Below, piece by piece: positions 30,841 to 64,000 of a DNA stretch of 64,000 nt. The DNA lies in contig OZ024743.1 in NCBI GenBank assembly GCA_964016885.1, positions 231,880,001-231,944,000 on the forward strand, in the 5' to 3' direction. The first letter of the stretch is position 1; each line of letters starts with the position of its first letter. The notes under the pieces are model-generated. The model was not told the DNA's origin. It searched no databases and worked only from the letters and a program-made list of their open reading frames with translations. Source of the stretch: Eledone cirrhosa. Lineage: Eukaryota. The position numbers were made by a program, and so were the translations under genes.

Positions 30841-30881
30841 GTTGGTGAAGAAGATTTGGAGAAAAAGGACGAAAGGTGCAC

Positions 30882-37272: not shown

Positions 37273-37817
37273 CCATTTATGTTAGATACATACGTATGTG
37301 TGTCTGAGTGTGTCTGCGCGAGTGTGCGTGTGTCCGAGTCTGTGTGCGCCTATGTGTCCCTGTCTGTGTGTCTCCGTATATGCCTGTGCCTGTATACACA
37401 ACGCTCACGTAAAATAATTTTCAATAATAATTAAAAGTTTTCAAATTTTCGTTTTATACATTTTATTTTACATTTGTCTACACGCAACCCTTAGTGTGTG
37501 TCAATAAATGTTTTTAAAATGGAAACAATGAGAAACAACGTCACACACACACACGCTCACACTCACAAATACACACACACACGCGCGGATGCATACACAC
37601 ACACACATAAAGCATACATAGAGGCATAGAATCACAAATAAATAATCTATGATAATACGTAAGAGCTTTCTTTTATTCTATACTAATTTCAGTACCGTGA
37701 ATTAACATTGAAACGCACAGCAAGGCAGCATATACTTCATAATTGTAATGTATGATACCCTCCAAAACTAACCAATTATTATAATTATTATTACTATTAT
37801 TATTATTATTATTATTA

Positions 37818-40800
37818 CAGCTGCATTTATCTTGCTTTATGTTCATACGAGTTATCACCAAGTCACAACCAGTGACCTCAAGAGACAACAAGGTCCGCCA
37901 TGTTCAAGAAAGAACATACATACTCACACATGCATCTTTAGGTGTTTAGACTTGTGATGTACTTATATTGACAGAATCTTCCTGAGTATATGGGCAGTTC
38001 CCATTAGTACTATCTTTTGTATTTCTCCTATACGCGGGTTTCCTGGGATTTGCGATAAGTAATCATTAGGCCCCTTAGGTATCATTCCTAGAGCGCCTAC
38101 AACCACTGGTATTGTTTTAGTTCTCAATTTCCATATTTTTCCAATTTCTATCTCCAGGTCCTTATACTTGCTCAATTTTTCAAATGTTTTTATAGATACA
38201 TTCTTGTCTATTGGAACAGACATATCAATTAGCAGACATACCCTCTTTTAAAGACCTTCAATATTATATCAGGTCTATTTGCATCTATTTTTCTTTCTGT
38301 TTGGATGCTAAAGTTCCACAAGATTGAGATGTGATCTTTTTCAAGTATGGGAGGTGGTTGATGCTCCCACCAATTCTTTTGATGGGGCAGGTCAAAATGC
38401 TTACACATTATCCAATGTATGTATTGTGCAGCTCTGTCATGCCTGTTTAGGTATTCGGTTGGAGCTATAGGACAGCACATTGAAATTATATGGTCAATGA
38501 TCTCTGGTTGTTTTTTGCATACACGGCATAATGGGCTGCATCAATTTTTTATTATGTTGGCTTGGTAATTTTTTGTTGGCAGACACTGATCTTGTGCTGA
38601 TATAATCAGTCCTTCAGTCTCCGATTTCAGTCCAGAGGATGCCGACCACTGATGGGTTAAAGTTTTGTCAACATCAGGATTGTTAGCTTGTTCTGGGTAT
38701 TTTCCATACAGAAGCTTTTCTTGCCATTTCTTAGCCAGTTTCTGTAGCAGTTCTTTCTTTGCAGTTACTTTTACCTGCCTTGCTTTTTCTGTGTTTTCCA
38801 TTTCAGCAGTAAATGGGACTTCTGAAATGTGTAGTCCATTACTGTATCTTTGTGCATCTTTTGTAATGGAGTATGATCTTTTGATGCTTTCGTGTTTCAA
38901 AACGAGTTTGATCATCCAATCATGTGATTCCCTTAGATATGTAGATAATCCAATTGTTGCAGTTTTCAACGCAATGTCTAACTGGATTAACCCACGTTCT
39001 CCTTCTATCCTAGGGAGATATATTCTATCTGTATCTGCCTTAGGGTGATGTATTCTGTGCATGGTTCAGAATTTTCGAATTTTTGTATCGAGCCTACGGA
39101 TCTCTGTGCTTGACCAGTTGATGACATTGTAACTGTAGGTTACTACTGGTATGGCAAGCGTGTTTATGGCATCGATCCTATTCCTTGCATTCAATTCCGT
39201 TCTTAAGATTGCTCTTACTCTGCGGTAACATTCCTTCCTTATACTTTCCCTCATTGTCGAGTGCTTGATTCCGTCTCCTTCACAAACACCTAGATATTTG
39301 TAAGTTTCCTCTTGATCAATTTCTCTTATCACATTCCCCCGATCAAGATTAATGTCTGAACTTTTCAGCAGCTTTCCTCTGGTGAACGTTGCTTTGGCGC
39401 ATTTATCTAGTCAAAACTCCATTTTAATGTCATCACTGAACTGATCCACAGTGGATAATAGCCCTTGCAATTGTTCATCATTTTTTGCAAATAGTTTCAG
39501 CTCATCCATGTAGAACAAGTGATTAATGGTTTTGTCATAGACTTTATATCCATGTTTTGTCTCATTGGGCATTTTACTTAATGGTATAAGTGCGATGCAG
39601 AATAAAAGCTGTGATAAAGAGTCACCCTGAAAAATTCAACAATTAATATTAACTTCTCCAGCTTCCAGTGATTTTGTTTCACTATTCAAAAGGAGTGTCG
39701 TTTTCCATGTCTTCATACTGAATGACAAAAACCTCCTGACAACGGGAGATATTTTGAAAATCTCTAAACATTTTTCAATCCAACTGTGTAGCAAACTATC
39801 GAATGCTTTTTTATAATCTATCCAAGTAATTGATAGATTTTTGTGTCTATTATGACAATCTTCCAGTATCATTTTGTTAACCAAAAGCTGATCCTTACAG
39901 CCATATGAGCCTCATTTACACCCTTTCTGCTCAATGGGAAATAGGTCATTTGTTATCAGGTGGTCATATGTATATTCATTTAGGACTGATGTTAAAATGT
40001 TATACATTGTGGTCAAGCAAGTTATCGGTCTGTAATATGGTATTGTCTGTCTCATCATTCTTCGAAAGTAGGAATGTAATGCCATTAACTAGCCATGGTG
40101 GTATCTTTTCTGGCTCCTTAACTATTTCATTGTAAAGTTGGGCTAACAGCTCATGAGACTCTGTGAAGGCATTTATCCAAAAATTTTGTATTTTGTCTTT
40201 TCCTGGGGATTTCCATTTGCTGGTTTTTCTTAGAGCCAAACGCAACTGTTCAACTGTTATATTTTCCCATATTTGTTCTACAAGGTGAGCTGTATCTTTC
40301 ATTTGTCTGTCTATCCATGGGGCATGTATATTATGACCTTTTTCTTCGGCACAGATCTTTTCTCAGAATTCTTTCACTTCCTCCGTGGGTGGTATTGATT
40401 TAGCAGTTATTGTTGACTTACCAATTATTCTGTAGAAGTTTCTTTGGTTGTTTTTGAACATATTATTGTCCTTATAGAATCTAGATCGTTTTTCAAAGCG
40501 CCTTATACGAGCAGCTTTGGCCGACACTTTTTGCTTGATTATTTCTATCAGCATGTCTATGTCATTTGTTGATTTTATATTGTACTTTCTTTTCAATTTT
40601 CTAAGTTTAGTTTGTTTAACATGTTCAGCTACTTTATAGTTTGTTAAAATTTCAATGTCAGATCGGAGAAGGTTTATTTGGCGATTGATGTTCTCTTGCC
40701 AAGTAGATTTCTTGTGGGAATTCCTTTGTTTTTTCATCTTCACTCCACATAAGTGAGTGGTGACTTTAGCCGATGCATAATAGAGATGATTTAAATCAGT

Positions 40801-41770
40801 AATGTTTAGATTGTTTGTGATGATAATGTTTTTGAGAATTATGTTAGTCTTGTGTATTATCTTTTGGTTCTGTTTGGAGTTCTGGATCTTAGGGAGGGTG
40901 TCTCGTTCCCCCATGTCAGATTCTTTCATTTTCATCCATTCGATCATAATTTCATCCTTCAAGTTGGCAAGTTCATTCTCATTCATTTCGTTATCATTTA
41001 CGATCTCATTGTTTTCATTTGGAGTTTCAACTTGAGCATGCACTCCCTCCACTTTTTCGATCCTTTCTTTAATTTGTTCTGTTGTCAGTGATTCCGCCCC
41101 AACCCTGGGATTCGAAGTGTTACAATTTACCTCGTGGTCACTGACACATGTTTCATTTTCCCTCCGCTGACTTTGTGCTAGTAGCTTGATCTGATCAATT
41201 TCTATATCAGTTAGTAACATTTTTTTTACAATATTTCTTCGTATATTGGCTAGTTTGTTACTGTCAATATACCCTCTGTTTTCGGGATGTTTCTTTTTCC
41301 AGTTGATATATGTCTGTTCTGTATTCGATGTATTTGATGGGTAGTACATGGCAGTGTAGAAAGCCTCAAGGACTTCTTTATTATCTTCCCTTGACCATTT
41401 TTCTCTCTTTTTCTTTGGATTTCTTGGTGGTGAGCATGGAGGGCCAACAGTAGGAGTATTCCGGTTATAGGAGGTCTCCAGCTCCGAAGTGATGGGAAGG
41501 TTTGAACCATTAGCTGATTTTTCGACCCCAGTCTGGTTCCTCTTTGAGGGACACGGCCTTTTTTGACCCGGGTGACGTCCGATCCGGTATGAGATTTTAT
41601 CATTAGACATTTACTTTATTTTGTCGCGTTTTATCCTTATACACCAAGGGTAATCATTTCGTGTTACCACTTCTAGGACGAGTGTCAACCAAGACTAGAG
41701 GGGTCGTCCTCCCCTAGAGACACGGCTATTCCCGCCGGCCGCCATCCCGGTATTTCTTGGTCACGGGGTT
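37818..41770 (-). mobile_element. Full-length-like RLE non-LTR retrotransposon, family A (R4/Dong-like), decayed
   Basis: Single fragmented ORF from 41610 to 37963: N-terminal REKWSREDN, WKSPGKD, WIDYKKAFDS, GLIQL, SETEGLIISAQDQ, RHD, RPDI, EK.SKY.DL. 3' end abuts (TAA)n. Confidence 0.88.
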
Positions 41771-41789
41771 TTCTTTTTTGTTGTATTTT

Positions 41790-42749
41790 TAAATTGTTAT
41801 TATCATGAGTCGTTCCTTAATGTGAGCATTGCGTGGCTTAAGAATGAAATTATTAATAATATAATATACTTTTTGCTGAAGTTGCCTGTTATTGTTGTTG
41901 GCTATGTCGGTGGTGGTGCTGGGGCTTTTTCTATTGTTGGTGGGGAAGGGGTAGCCAGCAGTGCCATAGTCGTTTTACGTTTGGCCGGTGGCCGGGTCAC
42001 TAAGTCAATCTATTTATATCTTTTGATAGCCTCTCCCATGTCTAGTGATACCGCCACCTTCTCCTTTCTTAAGTTAACAGAAGGTAATGGGGGAACAGTG
42101 GTGGTAGCAATGAAGGAGTGGTGGCGGCGTTGATTGGATAGTGGTCACAATGATGGATGGAGTGGTGGCGGCGGTGACTATAGTGATGGCGTTGTCGTTA
42201 CTGAGTTTTGTTGAATAGACTGTAGTTTTGTTTGATCTGTGTATCTATGCGTTTGTCGCGTGTGTTTAATATATGTGTTGACATATTTTAATTAATATTG
42301 GAATTAAACATTTTGTGAAAACTTGAGACAATAATAATAGTAGTAATTATTATTATTATGCTGGGATTGGTGGTGGTGGTGGTGAAATTGCCGTTATCTG
42401 GCTGTTGTATTTAGTGTACACAGAGGGGTGATGGGGTAGGTGGTGTATCTAGTTTCTGGTGTTGTGGAAATTGCTGTTATTTGGCTGTTCTATATAGTGT
42501 AGACAGAGAGGGTTTTCTTCCATTTATAACCATTTTCTTTTTTGAATATAAAATGTATAATACAAAATTGAATATTTGAGCGATATAACACTATATTATG
42601 GATCCGAATTTTCTGAGACCTGAGTCCGGTGTTTTATGCATCATTTGTACTAAGAATTGTTATTTCACAATTGATTTAAATATGTTAAAAATCAAAAACT
42701 TACGGGAGCGATTTCATGACCTTATAACCACCACGTGCGTCTTCTTTCC
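41790..42749 (-). mobile_element. ~1-kb Tx1-like 5' segment (UTR plus decayed ORF1-like start), copy 1
   Basis: Homologous to 48890-49916. Layout (short GC-rich start, AT-rich UTR, aaaATGG, Thr/Pro-rich coding) resembles the Tx1 5' ends at 51945 and 62060. Begins at (TAA)n. Confidence 0.5.
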
Positions 42750-42763
42750 TTATTATTATTATT

Positions 42764-45213
42764 CCCACGGGTAGAGGGATGGACTTTAGTGTCTACCTCA
42801 ACGGACTGCCGCGGCTCTCGGCCACTGAGGCGAAGTGTTGCGAAAAGCCGATAACAGCCGCTGAAGTAAGGGAGGCAATGACTGGCTGCACAAGGGGTAA
42901 ATCGCCTGGTTTGGATGGTCTGCCCTATGAACTTTACGTACAGATGCCAGACTTGTTCGGAGGCCTCTTGGCGGACGTCTACTGCAACTGGCAACAGAAC
43001 GGGAGAATTCCCAGTTCTGTGAGCCGAGGAGCGGTGGCACTGCTGAGAAAGGATCCGAACAAGGGGGATAACATAGAAAATTTCCGGCCCATAACTCTGC
43101 TAAACACAGAGTTTAAGATTTTGGCCAAGGTGCTAGCAAAGAGGTTGGCGCTTGTCGTTGGTGGTCTGGTGGGAGAGGCGCAGACATGCGCCATTCCCGA
43201 CAGATCCATCCACGACAACCTCCACCTCATGCGATACATCGTAGAGAGGGTAGCTAGGGAACCTGGCACGGGTGGGTCCTTGATCAATTTAGATCAGTCG
43301 AAAGCTTTCGATAAGGTCGACCATCGTTACCTAGCGGCAGTCCTGAGGGCAGCTGGCTTTGGGCCCGTCTTCAGAGGCTGGATCGCTGCCATGCACAGCG
43401 ACATCTGCTCTGTGGTGAGAGTGAACGGTCACCTGTCGGAACCGTTCAACATCATGCGCTCGGTCCGCCAAGGATGTCCCCTCTCGTCCCTCTTGTACGT
43501 ATTGACTCTCGAGCCATTACTGCACAAACTGGAGACGTTGAGGGGAGTCCCGCGCGAACTAGGATGCGGAAGATCCGTGTCAGCATATGCGGACGATGTC
43601 ACCGTAGTGGTGTCGAACGCCAAACACATCGAGGCGATCGGCACTACACTAAGAGAATACGAAGCGGTGACAGGAGCAATGATCAACCAGGAAAAGTCAG
43701 TGGGCCTGCAGCTCGGCACCTGGAGAGGCAGGTCCATGCCGTCCAACAGCGTCGTCGGGCGCTGGACGGACGGACCGGTTAAATTGCTAGGGGTCTGGTT
43801 CGGTCCGGACCTCCAGACGGACAAAAACTGGGACGAGGTGACGAGCAGGGTGGCTTCTCTCACCCAGAAATGGGCGGAGAGGAAGCTATTCCTGAAAGGT
43901 CGAGCGGAGGTGGCTAACGCGTACATCGCGTCTGTCATCTGCTACCGCCTAACCGTCGTACCTTGTCCTAAGCCTCGCCTGACTGCGCTGGAGCGTTTGC
44001 TCTTTCGCTTTTTGTGGAAGGGACGTGCTCCGATGGTCAGGCGGTCCATCTGTTGTCAACACCCGCTACGTGGAGGGCTGGGCATGCCGTGGCTGATGAT
44101 GCGCAGGCACGCGCTCAGGCTACGACATCTCCACCTCTTCCTCGACGGTGATCAGGTGTGGTCGCCGTTTGCTAGACGCGTTTTTCCCCAGCTCGTTTCC
44201 TTGACGGAGCTGCAGTCCTGGGTCAAGCGAAGACCGAGAGGGAGCGCCTGGAGACTGGAATGTCTTCAGGCGCTCACAGCCCTCGACCAATCGGGCAATG
44301 TGATCGGTGGAAACTCCAGCTCGGCGTTTTATAGAGGATTAGTGGAGGGGAAGAGCGACGACGTACTTGGGGAAACTCTAGGCGTCGACGAAAATCAACT
44401 AGCCAATCTCTTCGGAAGAACTTTCGGGCCAGGGCCTATGGACAACTTCCAGAAATCTCTGGCCTGGCAGTGCTACCGAGGAGCCTTGCCAGTTCGGGAT
44501 AAACTCTACAGGCATGGAGGTGCCGTCAGCCGGGCATGTCCGAGATGCGCGCAGGGCGACGAAACCGTCCTGCACGCACTCGTCCAGTGTCCGAAAATTG
44601 CTGACTTGTGGGTTTATGTCGAACACCTGCTGTCGCGTTTAGGACGGATCCAGCTATCATCTGAGTCCATCGTGAGGATTGCCCCGCCCTCCTCCTTTAG
44701 CCGGGAAGGGCAGGCAGTTTTTATCTGTCTGGTGGCCATGGCGAAAGAGATAGTATGGTGGACACGTTTGAAACGGCTGAAGACGAGCACTTACCTCTTC
44801 GGTGATGCCCTGATTAACTTTTTCAAATTTCATCTGAAAAGGAAAATCAGGGTAGAGAGGGAAGTGCTCTCTTCCCAGCATTTTGTTGAAAGATGGGTGA
44901 GAGAAGCAAGAATGGCCCGAGTGAATGGGCCTACTCTGAGTATATATCTGTAAATTAAAGGTGGAAAACTGGGAGAGGGCACTTGCCTTGGTGGTCAGGG
45001 TCATTGTGGCTTTTTACTGGGCTTTCTCCACAAATGTCCCTCCGAAGTCTCCCCCCTATTGGGGAATTTTTCATTGTTATTTTCATTGTTATTTATTGTT
45101 ACATCCTCTGTTTTTGTTTTTTACACGCAGAAATGCCCATTTGTACCGTCCTGCATTGTCCTGCACTGTCCTTAATGTCTACTTTATGTAAACCCTTGTG
45201 GTTAATAAAGAAA
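42764..45213 (+). mobile_element. 5'-truncated Tx1-clade LINE in (TTA)n
   Basis: RT ORF plus 3'UTR ending ttaataaagaaa; (TTA)n on both sides. Confidence 0.92.
42779..44953 (+). CDS. Tx1-like ORF2, uninterrupted RT to C-terminal Zn finger (APE lost by 5' truncation)
   Basis: 724 aa: SPGLDGLPYE, FRPITLLN, LDQSKAFDKVDH, RQGCPLS, AYADD, GGLGMP, CPRC...ETVLHALVQC. Confidence 0.9.
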   Translation: MDFSVYLNGLPRLSATEAKCCEKPITAAEVREAMTGCTRGKSPGLDGLPYELYVQMPDLFGGLLADVYCNWQQNGRIPSSVSRGAVALLRKDPNKGDNIENFRPITLLNTEFKILAKVLAKRLALVVGGLVGEAQTCAIPDRSIHDNLHLMRYIVERVAREPGTGGSLINLDQSKAFDKVDHRYLAAVLRAAGFGPVFRGWIAAMHSDICSVVRVNGHLSEPFNIMRSVRQGCPLSSLLYVLTLEPLLHKLETLRGVPRELGCGRSVSAYADDVTVVVSNAKHIEAIGTTLREYEAVTGAMINQEKSVGLQLGTWRGRSMPSNSVVGRWTDGPVKLLGVWFGPDLQTDKNWDEVTSRVASLTQKWAERKLFLKGRAEVANAYIASVICYRLTVVPCPKPRLTALERLLFRFLWKGRAPMVRRSICCQHPLRGGLGMPWLMMRRHALRLRHLHLFLDGDQVWSPFARRVFPQLVSLTELQSWVKRRPRGSAWRLECLQALTALDQSGNVIGGNSSSAFYRGLVEGKSDDVLGETLGVDENQLANLFGRTFGPGPMDNFQKSLAWQCYRGALPVRDKLYRHGGAVSRACPRCAQGDETVLHALVQCPKIADLWVYVEHLLSRLGRIQLSSESIVRIAPPSSFSREGQAVFICLVAMAKEIVWWTRLKRLKTSTYLFGDALINFFKFHLKRKIRVEREVLSSQHFVERWVREARMARVNGPTLSIYL

Positions 45214-45287
45214 TCATTATTATTATTATTATGATTATTATTATTATTATTATTATTATTATTGTTATTATTATTATTATTATTATT

Positions 45288-48200
45288 CCTTGAATCTCAG
45301 TCATTGATGTTGGTTAACTGGAAAGTCCGTTGGAATGAATATCAAGCCACTACCTGCAGCCTCAGATATTCAGGACGTATCGGAGGGTTCTTGCTGTTCC
45401 CAGCAAGCATGCCTTTTGAAGCGTTCCAAAAAGCGTGAAGGGGCCGATTTTCTTAAACCATCCCTGGAAACTTTTGGAGATAGTCCCCAGTGCTCGTATG
45501 ACAATCGGGATCACTTTGACTTCATGGCAGTTCCAAATCCTTTTTACCTCCCACTTTAAGTCCTGGTATCGGTTAATGTTCTCCCTCTCCTTCTCTTGCA
45601 CTCTCGTGTCGAAAAGGCAGGCCACATCCACAATCAGACACGATCTTTTTTCTTTGTCCACAACCACCAGGTCAGGTCTATTGTGTTCCAGTTTCTTGTC
45701 CGTCTGTATCCTAAAATCCCACAGCACCTTCACCTGATCGTTTTCTATCACCGCCTCTGGCTTATGCTCATACCACTTCTCAGAATGTGGTAAGTTGTTT
45801 ACTTTGCATAGGTGCCAGTGGATCACCCTGCCCATCACATCATGTCTCCAGCCCTTATAGTGGGTCTGGGCTAGGTGTTTACACTCGGATACAATGTGAG
45901 CCACAGTCTCCTCTCTCTCTCCACAGATCCTGCACAGTGGGCTAGCCTCCTCCTTGTAAACATGGTGTTTCAACCACTTCGTTTTGAGGGCCTGCTCCTG
46001 CGCAGCCACTAACATTCCTTCTGTAGCCTTTTTGAGGTCTCCTCTTCTCAACCAGTTCCATGTCTGTGGATCTCTAAATTCAGTTTTCTCAAAGAAGGTA
46101 CTATTAAGGGGTTTTCCCTGAAGGCTGCTCTTTCTCCTTGATGTTATTTCCTCCTTGGACATCCCCTGGCCTATTGTCCGCTCCTTCAGTACAGTTCTGA
46201 GCATTGGCTCCTTACTATCAGTCACGTATTTGTATAGGTTGTTTTTCTCCATCTGAACACAGTCCTCTATGCTGATAAGACCTCTTCCACCCTCAGATCT
46301 CCTTAGGTAGAGTCTATCGACATCACTCCTCTTGTGGAACATGTTGTAGATAGTCAATAGCTTCCTAGTCTTCCTATCCATTTCTTTTTGTTCAGCAACA
46401 TTCCATCTCAGAATTCCCGCACTGTACCTAATAATAGACACAGCTCGGGAATTTACTGCGCTTATGGCATTTCTGCTGTTCAGATGTGACTTCAATACGC
46501 TCCTTACACTCCGAATGTATTCAGTTCTTAACAATTCCTTCATTTTTTTGTTCTTTATGCCATCAGCCTCTAGAACGACCAAATACTTGTATCCTTCCTC
46601 AGAGTCAATTTCCTTTATCATCTCACCTGTTGGTATCTGGATTCCGTTACTTCTGCTCAACCTACCCCTCCTCATCACAATGACTCCACACTTACTAATA
46701 CCAAACTGCATACATATATCACTGCTGAAAATACGGGCAGTGTCAACAAGCACATCCAACTCCTTCTCACTCTTCCCGAAGAGCTTAAGATTGTCCATGA
46801 AGAGGAGGTGATTGATGGTAAGATCTCCCTTTCCCAACTTGTATCCTGCTCTCACTTTTCTCAGCATAATGGTCAGGGGTATCAGGGCAAGGACAAACAA
46901 CAGAGGGGACAGGCTATCTCCCTGGAAGATACCTCTCTTGATCTTCACGCTTCCCAAGGATTCTCCATTTGATGTCAACTCTGTCTCCCAGGAACTCATA
47001 CCCCTGCCCAGCAACTGTCTGATGTTATCTGCCACCTTGAAGATCTCCAGGCTTTTGGTGATCCAAGAATGAGGCACCATGTCAAATGCCTTTCTGTAGT
47101 CTATTCATCCCATGGCAAGATCAGTGATGTCTCCTCCTGCAATTACCCATTACCATCTTATCAATAAGTAACTGGTCCTTTGTACCACGTGACTTCTTTC
47201 GACATCCTTTCTGTTCGTCCGGTAACAAGTTGTTTGTGTGGAGGTGATGGTAGATTTCCTCAGACACAATGCTCGTCAACAGTTTCCACATTACGGACAG
47301 ACATGTGATAGGTCTATAGTTGGTAACATCATTACCCTTGATTCGGTCTTTCATTATCAGAACTGTGGTACCTTTTGTCAACCACTCTGGTACCTCCCCG
47401 ACATCAAGCAGTCATTGAACATGGCTGTCAGTTTCGGGTGGAGGGATGTTAAATTTTTAATCCAATACCCCTGCACACCATCTGGGCCTGGTGATTTCCA
47501 GTTGGTTAGTTTTTTGGCTGCCCCTTAAGAGTTTCAACTGTGATACTCAAATCAGTTTGTTGGTGTGCCTGCTCACCGATCTCCCTCTGTACTGTCTCAA
47601 TCCACCCTGCCTGGTCATGATGTCTAACATCCTGCTCCCATATTCCTCTCCAGAATGTTTTAGTTTGTTCCGCCTCAGAGATCAAGTCGTTGCCTCTTTC
47701 TTTCCCCTCAAGCTGTCCAAACAGCATCTACTGGTTGTTGTCGAACATGCGGTTCTGTTTATACTGACTGACTCTGTTCTCGTATCGCCTGATTTTTGCA
47801 CTCTTTGCTACAATGCGTTGCTTCAGTTCCTCTATGATATTATTTAGCTTTTTTCTCCTATTTTTGAACTTTATTTCCAGTCTATTTTTAGTGCCTATGT
47901 TTTTTAGTGTCCCATTCAGTAGTGACTCAAGCTTTCCAATGTCATTTCTCATTTCCCTGATTTGACCACTCAGTCGTTTCTTCCACCAAGGCTCTGCTCT
48001 TTCTTTTCTGTTGTTTCCTCTCGCTTTTATACCAAGTAGTTTCCTCACCGTATTTGCTGTTGCTTTGATTATATTGTTGCACTGGTGAAGGCTCCTCGCT
48101 CAAGGTATGGGATGACTTTGTTTACCTTAGTTATTGTTTCTTTTAACTTTTTCCTGTCTACAAATCTTAGGTTCATAGGTCTCCCACTATCATTGTTCAA

Positions 48201-48886
48201 TTTATCTACCACTAAATTTAGTATGTCAACCGAATCTTGTCCTAGCCCGTCAGCATTCATCTCCTCAGTGGCCGTAACTCTGTTCCAGGTATTATTTATC
48301 TCAGTATTCAGATCATTGTCTGCTTCGGGTGGTTCCTCCGTTCTCTCGACCTCTTGACCTTCATTTCCCACTGGCTCGTTTGCCTGGCATACTCCACCCT
48401 CCATCTCCAAGCTAATCTCTCTGCTCAGTTCCTCCAGTTCCAGCTCGCTTATCCACCCATTAGTTCTTATTACCCGAGCCTGCCCGGCCAATTTTTGTTC
48501 ATCTAATTTAAATAGACCAATCTCGTTCCAGATGTTATGCATCCGTCTCCTTTAGCCCCTCTCCTTGGGGTTACTTTTCAGGTAACATTGCATAACAGTT
48601 CTATTCAATTCTTTCGTCCAGTTGGTTCTGGTCCCTTTCCTTCTTCTTCTTCCTCCGACACCAGCAGTATTCGGTTGACAGCCAGGTTCCTGCTGCTGAG
48701 CCAGGGAGCACCTGTTGGGTGAGAGTCTGTCACATGACGTTCTAGTCTCCATTTCACCGTTATTCGAACCGTTTAGGTTCGATATTTAAACACTCTTATC
48801 GAGGATTGGCGAATGTATGGTTACATAGCCATCTGTGGATTCACCGTCTCCGGTGGTTGCGCCGCTCCACTTGGCTCTTGTGTGGC
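45288..48886 (-). mobile_element. Full-length-like RLE non-LTR retrotransposon, family B (R4/Dong-like)
   Basis: ORF pieces from 48752 to 45362: [59 protein letters not shown]. 3' end at (TAA)n. Confidence 0.9.
45362..47080 (-). pseudogene. Family B RT C-terminus, CCHC finger and restriction-like endonuclease
   Basis: 572 aa open, but the catalytic motif reads FMDN where the paralogs have FMDD; upstream stops. Confidence 0.85.
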
Positions 48887-48889
48887 ATT

Positions 48890-49915: not shown

Positions 49916-49916
<1 letters not shown>
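48890..49916 (-). mobile_element. ~1-kb Tx1-like 5' segment, copy 2
   Basis: Shares acttacgggagcgatttcatgacc...gtgcgtcttct and about 600 bp with 41790-42749; begins at (TAA)n. Confidence 0.5.
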
Positions 49917-49947
<31 letters not shown>

Positions 49948-49956
49948 TTATTATTA

Positions 49957-50411: not shown

Positions 50412-50445
50412 TATTATTATTATTATTATTATTATTGTTATTATT

Positions 50446-51887: not shown

Positions 51888-51888
<1 letters not shown>
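50446..51888 (-). mobile_element. 5'-truncated RLE family B copy (open ORF 50520-51869)
   Basis: 449-aa ORF with thumb, CCHC and RLE motifs; (TTA)n on both sides. Confidence 0.92.
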
Positions 51889-51944
<56 letters not shown>

Positions 51945-52151
51945 GGCGACCTACGTAGGAAATCGTATTATCGTGAGCTCCGCAAAGGTTTGTTATTTCC
52001 GTTTGTTAAAAATTGCCATTTATGGAAAATTTTATTGTTAACTGTTTATAAGCACACATACATTGTTTTCCGAAAAGGACACCCAAAAAGATTGGGGCCT
52101 TGTGCCCAAAATTTTAACTTTTATTATTATCCAAAAATTTCTTTGAAAAAA

Positions 52152-54139: not shown

Positions 54140-54173
54140 GTGGTCTTTCCCATCTTTTCCACTCCTTTTCAAC

Positions 54174-57100
54174 ATGACCTCACTCAGAATAGGCAGCATA
54201 AATGCGCGTGGCTTGGGGTCGTCATGGAAGCAGGGCCACCTGCTCAACGACCTCAGGTCACTAAACATAGATGTAGTGGCCATGAGCGAGACCAGAATCT
54301 CCGAAGCACAGGCTTTCGCACCGATCTTCGGCGGCTACGATGTGTACGCATCTCCCAGCCGTCCGGGATCGTGGGGGAGGAGTTGCTGTGCTTTTTCGGA
54401 GAGGTTTGGATCTTGCCATACGGGCCATCTTCCTGGACCCAGAAGGTAAGTTGGTGGTGCTGGACGTGACCAGCGGAGACGGGCAAGCTTTCAGGTTAGT
54501 GGCCGTCTATGCCCCGACAGGAGCAGGGCGGCCTGATTTCTTCCGGCGTCTGGAGACCTTTCTTGGAACGTCCCGCTCTTTAGTGTTAGTGGGCGACTGG
54601 AACGGGATCTTAGATGCACGCTGGGATTGTGTGGGATTAGTGGATAGGGAAGGAGGGTGCAAGAGTCTCACCAACCTGCTCAGACGTTTTGAACTGTCTG
54701 ACAGGTAGCGATTGGATTTCCCGAATGTGCCAATGTGGACTTGGACAAATCGCATAGGGTCATCCAGATCATATCTAGATAGAGTATTTTGTAGGGAAAT
54801 AGATAGGACTAACATAAACTGTCCACAATTCAAGATAGTCAGCTACACGGACCACAAATTCGTGATCTGTGTGCTTGACTTAGATAGGCTTCATAGACGA
54901 GGACCCGGCTACTGGAAGCTAAACGCGTCCTTACCTGCGCGCAAGGCCTACAGAGACCGGATTAGCGAACTAGTTAAGCGGGCGTTGACGGGGGTCATCG
55001 TCAACAACAAGTGGTGGTTTGCTCTGAAAAGAGCAATTAGAATAGAGTCCATTAGGTTTAGTAAGACTTTAGCAACAGAGAAAAATAGAGCAGAGGGAGA
55101 ATTAGTTAGAAAATTAGATGAGGCGCTTAGCAAAGGCATCGCGACCGACGTACTTGCGGCGAAATTGGCCCTTGACCAATTCTTCAATGCAAAGCACGAA
55201 GGCTGCGTTGTCAGAGCTAGGGTGCGTGCTCTCAGACACGAGGGAACGAAAGCCGTTCAATGAGCCCGAGTGGCGGAGGCGCGTCGTGGCAACAAATCCA
55301 CGATCCGGTCTTTGGTGGACCACGACGGGCGCATGCTACTCGATCCCGGGCAAATGTGTGAAGCTTTTCAGCGACACTTCGCTCAACTGTTCGGGGGCAG
55401 TGGCGGGCCGGATCGAGGGATGGACTTTAGTGTCTACCTCGACGGACTGCCGCGGCTTTCGGCCACTGAGGCGGAGTGTTGCGAAAAGCCGATAACAACC
55501 GCTGAAGTACGGGATGCAATGACTAGTTGCACAAGGGGTAAATCGCCTGGTTTGGATGGTCTGCCCTATGAACTTTACGTACAAATGCCAAACTTGTTCG
55601 GAGGCGTCTTGGCGGACGTCTACTGCAACTGGCAACAGAACGGGAGAATTCCCAGCTCTGTGAGCCGAGGAGCGGTGGCGCTGCTGAGAAAGGATCCGAA
55701 CAAGGGGGATAACATAGATACTTTTAGGAACCATAACTCTGCTAAACACAGAGTTCAAGATTTTGGCCAAGGTGCTAGCAAAGAGGTTGGCGCTTGTCGT
55801 TGGTGGTCTGGTGGAAGAGGCACAGACATGCGCCATTCCCGACAGATCCATCCACGACAACCTCCACCTCATGCGATACATCGTAGAGAGGGTAGCGAGG
55901 GAACCTGGCACGGGTGGGTCTTTGATCAATTTAGATCAGTCGAAAGCCTTCGATAGGGTCGACCATCGTTACCTAGCGGCAGTCCTGAGGGCGGCTGGCT
56001 TTGGGCCCGTCTTCAGAGGCTGGATCGCTGCCATGCACAGCGCCATCTGCTCTGTAGTGAGAGTGAACGGTCACCTTTCGGAACCGTTCAACATCATGCG
56101 CTCGTTCCGCCAAGGATGTCCCCTCTCGTCCCTATTGTACGTATTGACTCTCGAGCCATTACTGCACAAACTGGAGACGTTGAGGGGGGTCCCGCGCGAA
56201 CTAGGATGCGGAAGATCCGTGTCAGCATATGCCGACGATGTCACCGTAGTGGTGTCGAACGCCAAACACATCGAGGCGATCGGCACTACACTAAGAGAAT
56301 ACGAAGCGGTGACAGGAGCAATGATCAACCAGGAAAAGTCAGTGGGCCTGCAGCTCGGCACCTGGAGAGGCAGGTCCATGCCGTCCAACAGCGTCGTCGG
56401 GCGCTGGACGGACGGACCGGTTAAATTGCTAGGGGTCTGGTTCGGTCCAGACCTCCAGACGGACAAAAACTGGGACGAGGTGACGAGCAGGGTGGCTTCT
56501 CTCACCCAGAAATGGGCCGAGAGGAAGCTATCCCTGAAAGGTCGAGCGGAGGTGGCGAATGCGTACATCGCATCCGTCATCTACTACCGCCTGACCGTCG
56601 TACCTTGTCCTAAGCCCCGCCTGACTGCGCTGGAGCGTTTGCTCTTTCGCTTCTTGTGGAAGGGACGCGCTCCGATGGTCAGGCGGTCCATCTGCTGTCA
56701 ACACCCGCTACGTGGAGGGCTGGGCATGCCGTGGCTGATGATGCGCAGACACGCGCTCAGGCTACGACATCTCCACCTCTTCCTCGACGGTGATCAGGTG
56801 TGGTCGCCGTTTGCAAGACACGTTTTTCCCCAGCTCGTCTCCTTGACGGAGCTGCAGTCCTGGGTCAAGCGAAGACCGAGAGGGAGCGCTTGGAGACTGG
56901 AATGTCTTCAGGCGCTCACAGCCCTCGACCAATCGGGCAATGTGATCGGTGGAAACTCCACCTTGGCGTTCTATAGGGGATTAGTGGAGGGGAAGAGCGA
57001 CGACGTACTTGGAGAAACTCTAGGCGTCGACGAAAATCAACTAGCCAATCTCTTCGGGAGGACTTTCGGGCCGGGGCCTATGGACAACTTCCAGAAATCC

Positions 57101-57595
57101 CTGGCCTGGCAGTGCTACCGAGGAGCTTTGTCAGTTCGGTATAAACTCTACAGGCATGGAGGTGCCGTCAGCCGGGCATGTCCGAGATGCGCGCAGGGCG
57201 ACGAAACCGTCCTGCACGCACTCGTCCAGTGTACGAGCATTGCTGACTTGTGGGTTTATGTCGAACACCGGCTGTCACGTGTAGGACCTATCCAGCTATC
57301 AGCTGAGTCCATCGTGAGGATTGCCCCGCCCCCTTCCTTTAGCCTGGAAGGGCAGGGAGTTTTTATCTGTCTGGTGGCCATGGCGAAAGAGATAGTATGG
57401 TGGACACGTTTGAAAGGGCTGAAGACGAGCACTTACCTCTTCTGTGATGCCCTGATTAACTTTTTCAAATTTCATTTGAAAAGGAAAATCAGGGTAGAGA
57501 GGGAAGTGCTCTCTTCCCAGCATTTTGTTTAAAGATGGGTGAGAGAAGCAAGTATGGCCCGAATGAATGGGCCTTCTCTGAGTATGTGTCTGTAA
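54174..57595 (+). pseudogene. Tx1 ORF2 (APE-RT-Zn finger) with few lesions
   Basis: MTSLRIGSINARG, MSETR, GDWN, SYLDR, TDH, YADD. Stops at 54706, 55261 and 57530; frameshifts near 54375 and 55728. Confidence 0.9.
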
Positions 57596-57856
57596 ATTAA
57601 AGGTGGAAAACTGGGAGAGGGCACTTGCCCTGGTGGTCAGGGCCACTGTGGTCTTTTAATGGGCTTTCTCCACAAATGTCCCTTGGAAGTCTCCCCCCTA
57701 TTGGGGAATTTTTCTTTGTTATTTTTATTTCAACCTCTGTTTTTTTACACGCACAAATGCCCATTTGTACCGTCCTGTATTGCTCTGTACTGTCCTTAAT
57801 GTCTACTTTATGTGAACCCTTGTTGTTAATAAAGAAAACATTATTAGTATCATTAA

Positions 57857-57894
<38 letters not shown>

Positions 57895-57895
<1 letters not shown>

Positions 57896-58090
57896 AGTTG
57901 CATTTATCTTGCTTTATGTTCATACGAGTTATCACCAAGTCACAACCAGTGACCTCAAGAGACAACAAGGTCCGCCATGTTCAAGAAAGAACATACATAT
58001 TCACACATGCATCTTTAGTGTTTAGACTTGTGATGTACTTATATTGACAGAATCTTCCTTAGTATATGGGCAGTTCCCATTAGTACTATC

Positions 58091-58093
<3 letters not shown>
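57895..58093 (-). mobile_element. ~200-bp 3' fragment of RLE family A
   Basis: Matches 49957-50155; (TTA)n on both sides. Confidence 0.88.
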
Positions 58094-58123
<30 letters not shown>

Positions 58124-58135
58124 GTTGTTGTTATT

Positions 58136-59762
58136 CCTTGAATCTCAGTCATTGATGTTGGTTAACTGGAAAGTCCGTTGGATTGAATATCAAGCCACTA
58201 CCTGCAGCCTCAGATATTCAGGACGTATCGGAGGGTTCTTGCTGTTCCAAGCAAGCATGCCTTTTGAAGCGTTCCAAAAAGCGTGAAGGGGCCGATTTTC
58301 TTTAACCATCCCTGGAAACTTTTGGAGATAGTCCCCAGTGCGCCTATTACAATCGGGATCACTTTGACTTCATGGCAGTTCCAAATCCTTTTCACCTCCC
58401 ACTTTAGGTCCTGGTATCGGTTAATTTTCTCCCTCTCCTTCTCTTGCACTCTCGTGTCGAACGGGCAGGCCACATCCACAATCAGACACGATCTTTTTTC
58501 TTTGTCCACAACCACCAGGTCAGGTCTATTGTGTTCCAGTTTTTTGTCCGTCTGTATCCTAAAATCCCACAGCACCTTCACCTGATTGTTCTCCATCACC
58601 GCCTCTGGCCTATGCTCATACCATTTCTCAGAATGTGGTAAATTGTTTACTTTGCACAGGTGCCAGTAGATCACCCTGCCCATCACATCGTGTCTCCAGC
58701 CCTTATAGTGGGTCTGGGCTAGGTGTTTACACTCGGACACAATGTGAGCCACAGTCTCCTCTCTCTTTCCACAGATCCTGCACAGTGGGCTAGCCTCCTC
58801 CTTGTAGATATGGTGCTTCAACCACTTCGTTTTGAGGGCCTGCTGCTGCGCAGCCATTAGCATTCCTTCTGTAGCCTTTTTGAGGTCTCCTCTTCTCAAC
58901 CAGTTCCATGTCTGTGGATCTCTAAATTCAGTTTTCTCAAAGAAGGTACTATGAAGGGATTTTCCCTTAAGGCTGCTCTTCCTCCTTGATGTTATTTCCT
59001 CCTTGGACATCCCCTGGCCTACTGTCCCCTCCTTCAGTACAGCTCTGAGCATTGGCTCCTTACTATACGTCACGTATTTGTATAGGTTGTTTTTCTCCAT
59101 CTGAACACAGTCCTCTATGCTGAAAAGACCTCTTCCACCTTCAGATCGCCTTAGGTAGAGTCTATCGACATCACTCCTCTTGTGGAACGTGTTGTAGATA
59201 GTCAATAGCTTCCTAGTCTTCCTATCCATTTCTTTTTGTTCAGCAACATTCCATCTAAGAATTCCCGCACTGTACCTAATAATAGACACAGCTCGGGAAT
59301 TTACTGCGCTTATGGCATTTCTGCTGTTCAGATGTGATTTCAATACGCTCCTTACTCTCCGAATGTATTCAGTTCTTAACAATTCCTTCATTTTTTTGTT
59401 CTTTATGCCATCAGCCTCCAGAACGCCCAAATACTTGTATCCTTCCTCAGAGTCAATTTCCTTTATCATCTCACCTGTTGGTATCTGGATCCCGTTACTT
59501 CTGCTCAACCTACCCCTCTTCATCACAATGACTCCACATTTACTAATACCAAACTGCATACATATATCACTGCTGAAAATACGGACAGTGTCAACAAGCA
59601 CATCCAACTCCTTCTCACTTTTCCCGAAGAGCTTAAGATCGTCCATGAAGAGGAGGTGATTGATGGTAAGCTCTCCCCTTCCCAACTTGTATCCTGCTCT
59701 CACTTTTCGCAGCATAATGGTCAAGGGCATCAGGGCAAGGACAAACAACAGAGGGGACAGGC

Positions 59763-59764
<2 letters not shown>
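58136..59764 (-). mobile_element. 5'-truncated RLE family B copy (open ORF 58210-59748)
   Basis: 512 aa with FMDD, CCHC and RPDL; (TTA)n on both sides. Confidence 0.92.
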
Positions 59765-59793
<29 letters not shown>

Positions 59794-59823
59794 GTTATTA
59801 ATATTATTATTATTATTGTTGTT

Positions 59824-62030
59824 CTTTGAGTCTCAGACATTGATGTTATTTAACTGGAAAGTTTGTTGAAATGAATATCAAGCCACTATCTGCAGCCTCC
59901 CATATTCAGGACGTATCGGAGGGTTCTTGCTGTTCCCAGCAAGCATGCCTTTTAAGGTGTTCCAAAAAGTGGGGCGGGACCAATTTTCTTCAACCATCCT
60001 TGGAAACTTTGATCTCATTGCAGTTCCAAATCCTATTTACCTCCCACTTTAAGTCCTAGTATCGGTTAATTTTCTCCATCTCCTTCTCTTGCACTCTAGT
60101 GTCGAATGGGCAGGCTACATCCACAAGCAGGCACGATCTTTTTCCCTTGTCCAAAACCACCAGGTCAGTTATAATTTGTTCCAGTTTCTTGTCCGACTGT
60201 ATACTAAAATCCCACAGCACCTTCACATGATCTTTTTCCATCACCGACTCTGGCTTATGCTCATACCACTTCTCAGGATGTGGTAAATTGTTTACTTTGC
60301 ATAGGTGCCAGTGGATCACCCTGCCCATCACATCACGTCTCCAGCCTTTATAGTGAGTCAGGGCTAGGTGTTAACACTCGGATACAATGTGAGCCACAGT
60401 CTCCTCTCTCTCTCCACAGATGCTACACAGTGGGCTAGCCACCACCTTGTAAATATTGTGTTTCAGCCACTTCGTTTTGAGGGCCTGCTCTTGCGCAGCC
60501 ATTATCATTCCTTCTGTAGCTTTTTAAGGTCTCCTCCTTTCAACCAGTTCCATGTTTGTGGATCTCTAAATTCAGTTTTCTCAAGGAAGGTACTATGAAG
60601 GGATTTGTCATGGAGGTTGCTCTTCTTCCTAGTTGTTATATCCTCCTTGGACATCCCCTGGTCTATTGTCCTCTCCTTCAGTACAATATTGAGCATTGCC
60701 TCCCTACTATCAGTCACGTATTTGTGTAGGTTGTTTTTCTCCATCTGAACAGAGTCCTCTATGCTGATAAGATCCCTTCCACCTTCAGATCTCCTTAAGT
60801 AGAGTCTATCGACATCATTCCTCTTGTGGAACATGTTGTAGATAGCCAATAGCTTCCTAGTCTTCCTATCCATTTCTTTTTGTTCAGCAATATTGCATCT
60901 CAGAATTCCCGCACTATACCTAATAATAGACACAGCTCAGGAATTTACTGCACTTATGGCATTTCTCCTGTTCAGGTGTGACTTTAATACGCTCCTTATT
61001 CTCCGAATGTATTCAGATCTTATCAATTCCTTCATTTTTTTGTTCTTGATGTCATCAGCCCCCAGAACACCCAAATACTTGAATCCTTCTTCAGTGTCAT
61101 TTTCCTTTATCATCTCACTTGTTGGTACCTAGATTCCGTTGCTTCTGCTCAATTTACCCCCCACTTCATCACAAGGACTCCACTTATACTAGTACCAAAT
61201 TGCATACATATTTCATTGCTGAAAATACCGACAGTGTCAACAAGCACATCCAACTCCTTCTCACTCTTCCCGAAGAGCTTAAGATCGTCCATGAATAGGA
61301 AGTGATTGATGGTAAGCTCTCCCTTTCCCAACTTGTATCCTGCTCTCACTTTTCGCAGTATAATGGTCTGGGGGATCAGGGCAAGGACAAACAACAGAGG
61401 GGACAAACTATCTCCCTGGAAGATACATCTCTTGTTCCTCACGCCTCCCAAGTATTCTCCGCACGATGTTAACTCTGTTTTCCAGGACTTCATACTTTTG
61501 CTCAACAACTTTCTGATGTTATCTGCCACCCTGAAGTTCTCTCGGCTTTTGCTTATCCAATAATGAGGTACCATGTCGAATGCCTTTTTGTAGTTTATCC
61601 ATCCCATGGCAAGACCAGTGTGTCTTCTCCTGCAATTCCTCATTACCATCTTATCAATAAGTAACTGGTCTGTTGTACCACGGGACTTCTTTCGGCATCC
61701 TTTCTGTTCGTCCGGTAACAAGTTGTTTATGTGGAGATGATGGAAGATTTCCTCAGACACAATGCTTGTTAACAGTTTCAACATTACGGACATACATGTG
61801 GTAGGTCTATGGTTGGTAACATCATTACCCTTGGTTCGGTCTTTCATTACCAGAACTGTGGTACTTTTTGTCAACCACTCTGGTACCTCACCTGACATCA
61901 AGCAGTCATTGAACATGGTTGTCAGTTTCGGGTGGAGGGATGTTATAATTTTAATCCAATACCCCTGCACACCATACTGGGCCTGGTGATTTCCAGTCGG
62001 TTAGTTTTCTGGCCTGCCCCTTCCTGTCCC
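59824..62030 (-). mobile_element. Older, diverged 5'-truncated RLE family B-related copy
   Basis: Broken ORFs 61149-61970, 60505-60933 and 60056-60331; (TTA)n on both sides. Confidence 0.88.
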
Positions 62031-62059
62031 TTATTATTATTATTATTATTATTATTATT

Positions 62060-64000
62060 GAATGCCATGGTTGACGGAGGCTCGGCTCTGTAAGGTATAG
62101 TAATTTTTAACCGTTAAAACAATTGTAAATTGTTTAAAACTTGAACCAAATTGTTGATAAAGACACCCTCCTCCTCGTGAGAGGGGTCTTTCTGTCCGTT
62201 ATTTGGCCCTTCGGGGTTAAATAACCAGTTATTGGGGTTTTGTACCCAAAATTTCATTTTAAACAAAAAAACAACATGGCTACGAAAAAGAAATTTCATA
62301 CGTCACTCCCACTCATTCCGTCTTCTTCCTCAATCATCACTACAGCAGAGAGAAGATTGTCTCTCTCCCTCCCTTCTCTTTCGCAAGTGACGAAAGAAAA
62401 GAAAAGTCTCGTGCAAAGCGTGCAAGGTTTCTCCACGACGACGACAGCGACGAAACAGGTGTGCGGGAAATACGAAAACCCAGTTCATTCGTCTGACGTC
62501 AGGAATAATAGCAGTAGCAGCCGTAATAACAACAGCAACAGTGACAATGAAAACAACAGTAGCAGCCGCAACAGCATCACCAGCAGCATAAACAACAACA
62601 GCATTAGCAGCAGCAACACCAACAACAACCACAGCAACAGCGGCGGAGGCAGTAGTCGTAGTACCTGCAGCAACAACAAAAGTACCAGCAGCTCTGACGA
62701 CAACAACAACAGCAGAGAAAAACCAATCTCATTTGCAGGTATTGCGAAAAACTTGGAAACAATCCTCATAACAAATGAGGAATTAGAGGAAGCGAAGAAG
62801 ATGGTGACAAAGAACGGACACCGAGCAATCTGCAAGGCAGCGGAAAAATTTTTCGAAACCCAAGAGCACTGTACGGTCACGTACCGTACAGTAAGTACAA
62901 AATCCCGTAGGGTGGAAAGAGCCACAGAGGCCCAAATACAAAAAGCCTTGGGGTCTGTGTGGCAGCGGAAAACGCACATCACCCGAGGCAAAAAATATGC
63001 CACCGTAGACGTACTTTTTGCCACACCCCAGGAGGCAAAGGCCCAATCAGTAGTGACCCTAAGGAGCGAGGAAATGGTGTTGGTGCCCTCCTACTGCGGG
63101 CAAAAAATTGTGAGGGTCAAACTGACCCACGTCCCCCCCCCCCCCCCGGAATGACCCCTTCTTGGCTGGCCGCGTCTGTCCTCGTCGGAATCGAGGACAA
63201 AACAACTGTACTGCAAGTACAGAAAAAAGTAAGAGAAGATTGGGTCGGCTCCTCCATTGAGATGCTAATCCAAACCAACCAGGAGTGCATCGAAGCTATC
63301 CCGGATGTGATAGACTTCGATAACGGCACTCAACTGCCCATAAGTGTTGAGGGCAAACGCCCGAAATGCTTTCGCTGTGGATCGAAGACTCACCTCAGAG
63401 CCTTCTGCAACGAGAAGACCCTGAGAAAGGAGAAAACCCCCCTCCTTCCGAATCCGGCTCCACGGCTACCAGCAACAGGACAAGCGGCAACCAGGAACGA
63501 TAGGTCCGTGGCACCCATACCCACTCCACGGAAATCAAAAACAGCAGCAGCAGTGGAAATATTAACAACAACAACAGCAATACCAAATGCAGCTGCAACA
63601 GAGACTCCAGTGCAAATATCACCAACAACAACAAGTGAAAGAGTGGAGCTGGTACCCCTCCCCCACCTCACAGAATCAGACATGGAGTGTGAGGTGGGAG
63701 AGGGATGGCAAAAGGTCGCAAGAAGGCACAAACGCAGAAGCAGCGCATCGTCGCCTTTGAAAAGGGAGGAAAGAAATGAGAAAAGGGTAAAGTCTACTGC
63801 AAAGAGACCCACAGCAGCAACACCACCAACAACATCACCACCCACACTAGCACCACCATCACCACCGGCGACAACCCCACCGCCAACAACACCTTCAACA
63901 CCACCACCACAAGCACCAACATCGCAAACACAACAACAAAACACACACACCCAGCAACAACGACAAGAAAATAGCAGAACCACACCCCACCCCCAGAAAA
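62060..64000 (+). mobile_element. 5' part of another Tx1-clade LINE (ORF1 from 62276), running off the window
   Basis: CTVTYRTVSTKSRRVERATEAQIQKALG is homologous to ORF1 near 52710; CFRCGSKTHLRAFC knuckle near 63368; frameshift at poly-C 63133-63147; preceded by (TTA)n. Confidence 0.85.

What the first reader, a model, noticed from the sequence alone, without database searches (positions are those of the whole stretch)
37773..64000. 26-kb nest of retrotransposons stacked in a (TTA)n microsatellite, with two endonuclease classes in opposite polarity
Seen: ten (TTA)n tracts (about 37773, 42750, 45216, 49917, 50412, 51889, 57841, 58094, 59764 and 62031) bound consecutive elements, with no unique DNA between them. 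All six RLE copies are on the minus strand and end in (TAA)n. All three Tx1 copies with recognisable ORFs are on the plus strand and start after (TTA)n; the two whose 3' ends are visible also end in it. Established: Dong (R4 clade) targets TAA repeats, some Tx1 families target microsatellites, and SART/TRAS insert in opposite orientations in insect telomeric repeats. Inference: a self-regenerating landing pad where each insertion leaves a fresh target shared by unrelated sequence-specific nucleases. TTA-specific Tx1 elements co-targeting with RLE elements may be undescribed.
Basis: partly seen in the sequence, partly recalled or inferred. Interest (0 to 1): 0.8.

Follow-up and report, generated by a model that had tools for sequence, protein, structure and literature searches.

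The report
Two retrotransposon classes share one microsatellite
Two unrelated kinds of jumping gene, in what is likely an octopus genome, both insert into the same TTA/TAA triplet repeats but always face opposite ways, and one kind lengthens the repeat as it inserts, which likely keeps fresh landing sites available so that long stacks like this 36-kb one build up across the genome.

Summary
Confirmed and extended. The nest runs 37773 to about 73814 (past the window end): 12 TTA tracts, 7 Dong/R4-like RLE LINEs (not 6), all minus, and 4 Tx1-like APE LINEs, all plus. It is one of many such nests. Genome-wide, 607 of 642 TxA and 1665 of 1707 TxB 5' starts follow TATTATT in one phase. The decisive test used one TTA tract carried inside an unrelated multicopy repeat: of 73 copies, 55 are empty and 17 filled; 9 of 9 Tx1 insertions are TTA-sense and 10 of 10 Dong insertions TAA-sense. 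So the repeat is a target, not only a tail. Regeneration is lopsided: Dong raises the tract from a median 15 to 27 units (duplication plus its own tail); Tx1 only to 17, and truncated Tx1 copies often lose the upstream repeat. Tails of SINE, CR1, Penelope and RTE elements likely seed tracts. A sister Tx1 lineage uses (TCTA)n. Dong in TAA is known, including in molluscs; Tx1 in TTA or TCTA and co-targeting with Dong were not found in nine literature searches. No named Tx1 or Dong reference could be put in a tree; nicking is untested. New variant of a known kind.

The parts
37773..37817 (+). (TTA)n tract 1, left edge of the nest; TAA tail side of RA1
37818..42749 (-). RA1: full-length Dong/R4-like RLE LINE (4932 bp), single ORF broken by stops and frameshifts; N-terminal helical domain, RT, CCHC, PD-D-type nuclease
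42750..42762 (+). tract 2, head-to-head junction (5' end of RA1, 5' end of truncated TxB): cannot be the 3' tail of either neighbour
42768..45213 (+). TxB1: 5'-truncated Tx1-like LINE (RT, zf-RVT, 3' UTR)
45216..45287 (+). tract 3, tail-to-tail
45288..49916 (-). RB1: full-length Dong/R4-like LINE of a second family (4629 bp); RT and RPD...D nuclease motif align with R2 proteins in the PDB; broken ORF
49917..49956 (+). tract 4
49957..50411 (-). RA2: 5'-truncated RA (about 450 bp)
50412..50445 (+). tract 5
50446..51888 (-). RB2: 5'-truncated RB
51889..51944 (+). tract 6, head-to-head junction
51945..57838 (+). TxA2: full-length Tx1-like LINE (ORF1 with a CCHC knuckle; ORF2 APE-RT-zf-RVT); this copy has stops and frameshifts
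57841..57894 (+). tract 7, tail-to-tail
57895..58091 (-).
58092..58135 (+). tract 8
58136..59763 (-). RB3: 5'-truncated RB
59764..59817 (+). tract 9
59818..62030 (-). RC4: 5'-truncated older RB variant (about 88% to RB1)
62031..62059 (+). tract 10, head-to-head junction
62060..64000 (+). TxB3: full-length Tx1-like LINE with another 5' UTR/ORF1 but ORF2 94.6% like TxA; continues to window-equivalent 68075, then a tract, TxA4 (68117-73778) and a last tract (to about 73814), all beyond the window
27099..32826 (-). outside the nest: full-length sister Tx1 lineage (TxG) flanked on both sides by (CTAT/ATAG)n; internal control for target specificity
32916..34386 (-). outside the nest: 5'-truncated TxG stacked in the same (ATAG)n tract

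Best explanation
This is a stack of separate LINE insertions in one (TTA/TAA)n microsatellite: Tx1-like APE elements lie in the TTA sense and Dong/R4-like RLE elements in the TAA sense, likely because their two unrelated endonucleases make the priming nick on opposite strands of the same repeat. Shown: both classes insert into pre-existing tracts with fixed, opposite orientation; Dong insertions leave more repeat than was there (target duplication of 18-28 bp at one readable site, plus a tail copied from its RNA, marked by AAC variants in 57 of 68 RB ends); each insertion splits one tract into two. Inferred: Tx1 APE nicks the TAA strand at the T-A step (full-length 5' junctions are in one phase, TATTATT|G), Dong RLE nicks the TTA strand; replication slippage adds length; Dong is the main producer of new target and Tx1 mostly a user; tracts are first laid down by TTA tails or internal tracts of less choosy SINE, CR1, Penelope and RTE elements; nests grow because AT-rich repeats are a low-cost place to land.
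For: Paralogous site: 55 empty, 17 filled, 1 other of 73 copies; 9 of 9 Tx1 TTA-sense, 10 of 10 Dong TAA-sense (Fisher p 1e-5); in 185.6 kb of flanks (58 of those loci) the only Tx1/Dong hit away from the tract was one Dong with its own TAA flank. Genome-wide exact counts 607 of 642 and 1665 of 1707. 154 sequences (153 loci and the window): 3' ends Tx1 77 of 84 TTA, Dong 132 of 135 TAA; full-length 5' ends 41 of 41 and 6 of 6; truncated Dong 76 of 102 TAA; no 5' end with the other class's polarity. 90 long tracts picked by position: 57 touch Tx1 or Dong, 31 of 31 and 57 of 57 neighbours in the expected sense. Repeat units flanking insertions: Dong median 27 (n=8, p 3e-6; 23-28 without the two loci found by other searches), empty 15 (n=55). 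Duplications read through unique flank: Tx1 at least 28 bp (L374), Dong 18-28 bp (L420), SINE 6-18 bp (L391). Sister lineage TxG uses (CTAT)n and forms its own clade. Tail-only controls: 0 of 4 Penelope and 1 of 6 CR1 5' ends are TTA.
Against: Truncated Tx1 5' ends are TTA in only 10 of 33 at a strict threshold; by eye 6 more have 2-3 units, 9 are internal deletions, inversions or subfamily switches, 5 are fused straight to a neighbour, 3 are unexplained. 26 of 102 truncated Dong ends also miss the threshold. Tx1 adds little repeat (median 17 against 15, n=7, p 0.04). Each duplication length rests on one locus. Most samples are top-scoring (young) hits. No nuclease assay, no tree with named Dong, R4, Tx1L, Kibi or Koshi. 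The CR1 and Penelope controls are few and partly alignment breaks.
Confidence: 0.85

Rival explanations
1. Targeting is set by RNA-DNA pairing, not by nuclease specificity: loosely AT-preferring nucleases nick many sites, but only sites where the transcript's UUA or UAA end pairs with the primer give insertions. Polarity then follows from the tail each RNA carries.
For: RB tails are templated (57 of 68 with AAC variants); full-length Tx1 5' junctions are in one phase while truncated ones are untidy, as expected if repeats at the RNA ends anneal; one TxA inserted at an imperfect ATTAAT edge of the tract (L374); pairing at the target is discussed for SART1 (PMC7265360, passages).
Against: CR1, Penelope and SINE also end in TTA yet mostly have non-TTA 5' ends (SINE 29 of 78); for TRAS1/SART1 the endonuclease is called the main determinant. 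The two mechanisms can act together.
Confidence: 0.25
2. TTA is only an element-encoded tail and nests are passive pile-ups in tolerant regions.
For: 3' tracts alone cannot tell tail from target; many truncated Tx1 5' ends lack TTA.
Against: Head-to-head tracts in the nest; 17 filled paralogous sites all at one 60-bp spot that keeps its diagnostic ACT interruption; fixed polarity.
Confidence: 0.02
3. The stack arose by tandem duplication, read-through co-mobilisation or mis-assembly.
For: Head-to-tail runs of full-length TxB at about 6-kb spacing exist elsewhere (listing); read support across the nest was not obtained.
Against: The 11 copies come from five subfamilies, have different truncation points, opposite strands and different ages; stacks of 2-3 elements form afresh inside young copies of the host repeat (L375, L418, L420).
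Confidence: 0.04

Closest known systems
Dong / R4 clade RLE LINEs (Dong of Bombyx mori, DongAg, DongBg; RepeatMasker class Dong-R4)
   Same: One ORF of about 1130-1160 aa, RT, CCHC, C-terminal restriction-like nuclease, no N-terminal zinc finger, (TAA)n target. TAA is reported as the Dong target in most insects, molluscs and cnidarians (PMC7998251, passages; PMC3812793, passages). R4 makes a 13-bp duplication (PMC6895275, passages).
   Different: Two families 40% identical share one 480-nt 5' end; the target is shared with APE elements; an 18-28 bp duplication was read at one site. Likely ordinary new members.
Microsatellite-targeting Tx1 families: Kibi (TC)n, Koshi (TTC)n, crocodilian Tx1 (TTCC)n/(TTTC)n
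   Same: Two ORFs, APE-RT-zf-RVT, insertion in a pyrimidine-rich-strand microsatellite (PMC4494074, passages and section 15).
   Different: Targets are (TTA)n and, in the sister lineage, (TCTA)n, neither listed in those papers; host is likely an octopod (nearest named hits Argonauta hians and Acanthosepion pharaonis); relation to Kibi/Koshi could not be tested.
SART and TRAS in Bombyx (TTAGG)n telomeric repeats
   Same: Two families insert in one repeat in opposite directions (PMC7265360, passages).
   Different: SART and TRAS are both APE elements of one clade (R1; recalled) and are telomeric; here the nucleases are of unrelated folds and the targets are tens of thousands of dispersed tracts that the elements help to make.
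Recently active Dong-R4 and L1-Tx1 families and TE hotspots of Octopus vulgaris
   Same: Same classes reported as recently active (5 Dong-R4 families, 1129 insertions; 13 L1-Tx1 families, 421 insertions; PMC13282606, passages).
   Different: The passages seen give no target sequence, polarity or nesting ('nested' 0 occurrences); its supplement was not read.

Membership tests
Dong/R4 clade | single ORF with RT and C-terminal CCHC plus PD-D restriction-like endonuclease | tested here: met
   RVT_1, zf-RVT, RPD(x14)D aligning with the R2 nuclease; relatives are single 1020-1300 aa proteins
Dong/R4 clade | no N-terminal zinc finger or protease (unlike R2, NeSL) | tested here: met
   no such Pfam hit at E 0.5 and no Cys/His finger in the N-terminal 415 aa of RA or in P0122
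Dong/R4 clade | diverged N-terminal Myb/SANT-like domain | tested here: inconclusive
   conserved W-led helical block in 73 rows; model pLDDT 87.5, four helices; Foldseek best E 0.87, top rows PRC2 chains, none significant; wider search did not finish
Dong/R4 clade | (TAA)n target, element in TAA sense | tested here: met
Dong/R4 clade | RT tree placement with named Dong, R4, Rex6 | not testable with these tools
   no named reference among the hits
Tx1 clade | ORF2 with N-terminal APE, RT and C-terminal zinc finger, L1-like | tested here: met
   Exo_endo_phos, RVT_1, zf-RVT; best solved relatives are L1 endonucleases
Tx1 clade | separate ORF1 with CCHC zinc knuckle (feature recalled, not from a call) | tested here: met
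   Cx2Cx4Hx4C read directly in TxA and TxB ORF1; no Pfam hit
Tx1 clade | target-sequence preference (criterion in PMC4494074: target in over 20% of flanks) | tested here: met
   94.5% and 97.5% of full-length starts
Tx1 clade | RT tree placement with Tx1L, Keno, Kibi, Koshi | not testable with these tools
   no named reference found in three protein searches; the tree holds only this genome's copies and unnamed or cephalopod hits
Kibi/Koshi group | (TC)n or (TTC)n target | tested here: not met
   targets are (TTA)n and (TCTA)n; works like them, not shown to be a member
SART/TRAS pair | telomeric (TTAGG)n target, both APE | tested here: not met
   interstitial locus (C4:231.9 of 378.8 Mb), TTA target, one partner is RLE

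The most novel reading that the evidence does not exclude
Long (TTA)n microsatellites in this genome are a self-amplifying niche shared by a guild of retroelements: CR1, Penelope, RTE and SINE elements seed tracts, Dong manufactures new target at every insertion, and a cephalopod Tx1 radiation that has split between (TTA)n and (TCTA)n lives on it from the opposite strand. This loop would account for most long TTA tracts and many TE hotspots in octopod genomes, and TxA versus TxG would be a natural pair for mapping how an APE nuclease changes its repeat target.
Probability: 0.45. Interest if true: 0.75.

Novelty: new variant of a known kind. Interest (0 to 1): 0.58.

Why it matters
It gives a sequence-level cause for dense LINE stacks in large cephalopod genomes and shows microsatellites and LINEs feeding each other at scale (about 37,700 matches to eight perfect units; 57 of 90 sampled tracts touch these elements). 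It adds (TTA)n and (TCTA)n to the Tx1 targets found in the papers read. The tract inside a multicopy host repeat makes normally unreadable quantities measurable (duplication length, repeat gain per insertion, polarity). Young copies with open ORF2 and an intact endonuclease motif exist (7 of 8 checked), so target switching and opposite-strand nicking can be tested at the bench.

Full report
Observation. Self-comparison and a library of window elements show eleven LINE copies between twelve tracts once 29 kb to the right is added: seven minus-strand RLE copies of two families (RA, and RB with an older variant RC) and four plus-strand APE copies (TxA, TxB). The nest spans 37773 to about 73814. 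Three tracts (42750, 51889, 62031) lie between two 5' ends and so cannot be the tail of either neighbour. The window is G000:C4:231,880,001-231,944,000 in a 3.0-Gb assembly. The nearest named relatives of the APE protein are from Argonauta hians and Acanthosepion pharaonis, so the host is likely an octopod; this is an inference.

What the elements are. RB carries RT, a CCHC finger and an RPD...D motif that aligns with the nuclease of solved R2 proteins; its relatives are single proteins of 1020-1300 aa, one of 1710. RA and RB are about 40% identical in protein yet share their first 480 nt at 86%. The N-terminal block folds confidently as four helices but matched nothing significantly; a Myb/SANT-like domain is reported there for R4/Dong (PMC7998251, passages). 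TxA/TxB have an ORF1 with a Cx2Cx4Hx4C knuckle and an ORF2 of APE, RT and zf-RVT. The window's full-length copies are broken; 28 of 37 top-scoring TxA copies fetched with upstream DNA are full length, and several have an open 1139-aa ORF2. Clade names rest on anatomy and target, since no named reference could be placed in a tree.

Target or tail? Exact genome-wide counts: 607 of 642 TxA starts and 1665 of 1707 TxB starts follow TATTATT. In 154 sequences (top hits of five searches plus the window; rows under 86% identity, 80% for TxG, or under 100 bp dropped): 3' ends Tx1 77 of 84 TTA and Dong 132 of 135 TAA; full-length 5' ends 41 of 41 and 6 of 6; truncated Dong 76 of 102 TAA; truncated Tx1 10 of 34 TTA; none in the other class's polarity. 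Of 29 further full-length RB starts nearly all follow TAA, two only after a run of GAA. Against the simple picture, truncated Tx1 junctions are untidy: of 33, 10 pass, 6 have 2-3 units, 9 are internal rearrangements or subfamily switches, 5 are fused to a neighbouring Dong or SINE (overlaps of 1-6 nt in the four measured), 3 are unexplained.

Decisive test. A roughly 5-kb multicopy repeat with an RTE-type ORF carries a TTA tract with a diagnostic ACT interruption. Two searches from either flank gave 80 hits, 73 distinct copies, all examined: 55 empty, 17 filled, 1 with the left side replaced. The filled copies hold 9 Tx1 insertions, all TTA-sense, 10 Dong insertions, all TAA-sense (Fisher p 1e-5), and 2 SINEs; three hold stacks of 2-3 elements, one mixing Dong and Tx1. 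In 185.6 kb around 58 of these loci only one other Tx1/Dong copy was found, a Dong with a TAA flank. Where an insertion fell at the tract edge the duplication is readable: at least 28 bp for TxA (L374, where the 3' end runs straight into target with no tail of its own), 18-28 bp for Dong (L420), 6-18 bp for the SINE (L391).

Regeneration. Repeat units on the outer flanks: empty median 15 (11-23, n=55); Dong 27 (n=8, of which 2 loci came from other searches; the other six 23-28); Tx1 17 (13-23, n=7; two Tx1 sites without both anchors left out). RB tails carry AAC variants in the first 15 nt in 57 of 68 ends, so part of the tail is copied from the RNA. Dong therefore makes new target; Tx1 mostly splits it and sometimes deletes it.

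Genome scale. About 37,700 matches to (TTA)8 followed by C or G. Among the first 91 tracts on C1, 36 of 90 neighbours lie within 7 kb and 35 of these share a strand, against 28 of 54 distant pairs. Of 90 long tracts in regions fetched by position (five listed singles not fetched), 57 touch Tx1 or Dong, 16 another element, 17 none. Free flanks of tracts are often tails of a tRNA-head SINE (45 of 132 left flanks), CR1 (6) or Penelope (5); these likely seed nests. The seed of this nest was not identified.

Sister lineage. TxG, twice in this window and once just past the nest, sits in (CTAT)n at both ends. In a 370-column tree the TTA copies (93/93, with two unnamed hits) and the CTAT copies (100/99) are sister groups with the Argonauta protein outside: a target split within a cephalopod lineage. 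At least five Tx1 5' modules start after TTATT.

Mechanism. By target-primed reverse transcription (established), fixed orientation means the priming nick is on the TAA strand for Tx1 and on the TTA strand for Dong; junction phase puts the Tx1 nick at a T-A step, as for TxG (inferred). RNA-end pairing may contribute (rival 1).

What is known. Dong in (TAA)n, molluscs included (PMC7998251, PMC3812793, passages); Tx1 in (TC)n, (TTC)n, (TTCC)n, (TTTC)n (PMC4494074, passages and section 15); SART/TRAS in opposite directions (PMC7265360, passages); active Dong-R4 and L1-Tx1 in Octopus vulgaris without target analysis in the passages seen (PMC13282606); R4 13-bp duplication (PMC6895275, passages). 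Nine searches (listings and abstract starts) showed no TTA- or TCTA-targeting Tx1 and no RLE/APE co-targeting. The library lacks Kojima and Fujiwara 2004 and Repbase, and no supplements were read (those of PMC4494074 and PMC13282606 may bear on this), so novelty is provisional.

Verdict. Real, genome-wide, well supported; each half resembles a known system, the combination and the new Tx1 targets appear undescribed. Interest 0.58.

Noticed in passing
window 42270-42749 and 49420-49916; window 51945-54090 against 62060-64000: 5' modules are exchanged in both classes: RA and RB (40% protein identity) share a 480-nt 5' end at 86%; TxA and TxB share ORF2 (94.6%) behind different 5' UTR/ORF1.
   Followed up: partly
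L233, L236, L238, L241, L228, L243 (full-length RB 5' junctions): Repeated copying of the element's first bases (GAAGAAG) builds (GAA)n runs or short duplications at the 5' junction: a new microsatellite born at Dong heads.
   Followed up: no
L201:8308, L211:4315, L215:6222 and 9229: Truncated Tx1 and truncated Dong joined head to head with no repeat and 1-6 nt overlap: target deletion at 5' joining or later deletion.
   Followed up: partly
L428 (about 3400-8400), L273, L314, L316: Young multicopy repeat of about 5 kb with an RTE-type ORF and several internal TTA tracts; 1441-2126 first-look candidates; spreads ready-made targets.
   Followed up: yes
L052 (minus, about 185 bp) and many loci; window-equivalent 73966-74088: Abundant tRNA-head SINE ending in ATT repeats, TTA-sense, 29 of 78 5' ends after TTA; its last 24 nt loosely resemble the Tx1 3' end, a possible mobilising partner.
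   Followed up: partly
L374:9530-9558: A 9-nt piece of another Tx1 subfamily's 3' end sits at the 5' junction of a truncated TxA: a template jump or a tiny later insertion.
   Followed up: no
G000:C1:55,429,683-55,455,624 and 114,792,140-114,810,533: Runs of four to five full-length TxB starts at 6-7 kb spacing on one strand (listing).
   Followed up: no
window 9345-11603: 5'-truncated CR1-like LINE on plus, ending before an (AT)n tract.
   Followed up: no
window 2164-4062: Six tandem copies of a 310-bp unit, 99% alike, between (TA)n tracts.
   Followed up: no
window 36123-37065; 22832-23984 with 34394-36083: Inverted-repeat element between (TA)n tracts, found also in L194 and L377; and two diverged copies of an unclassified repeat.
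   Followed up: no
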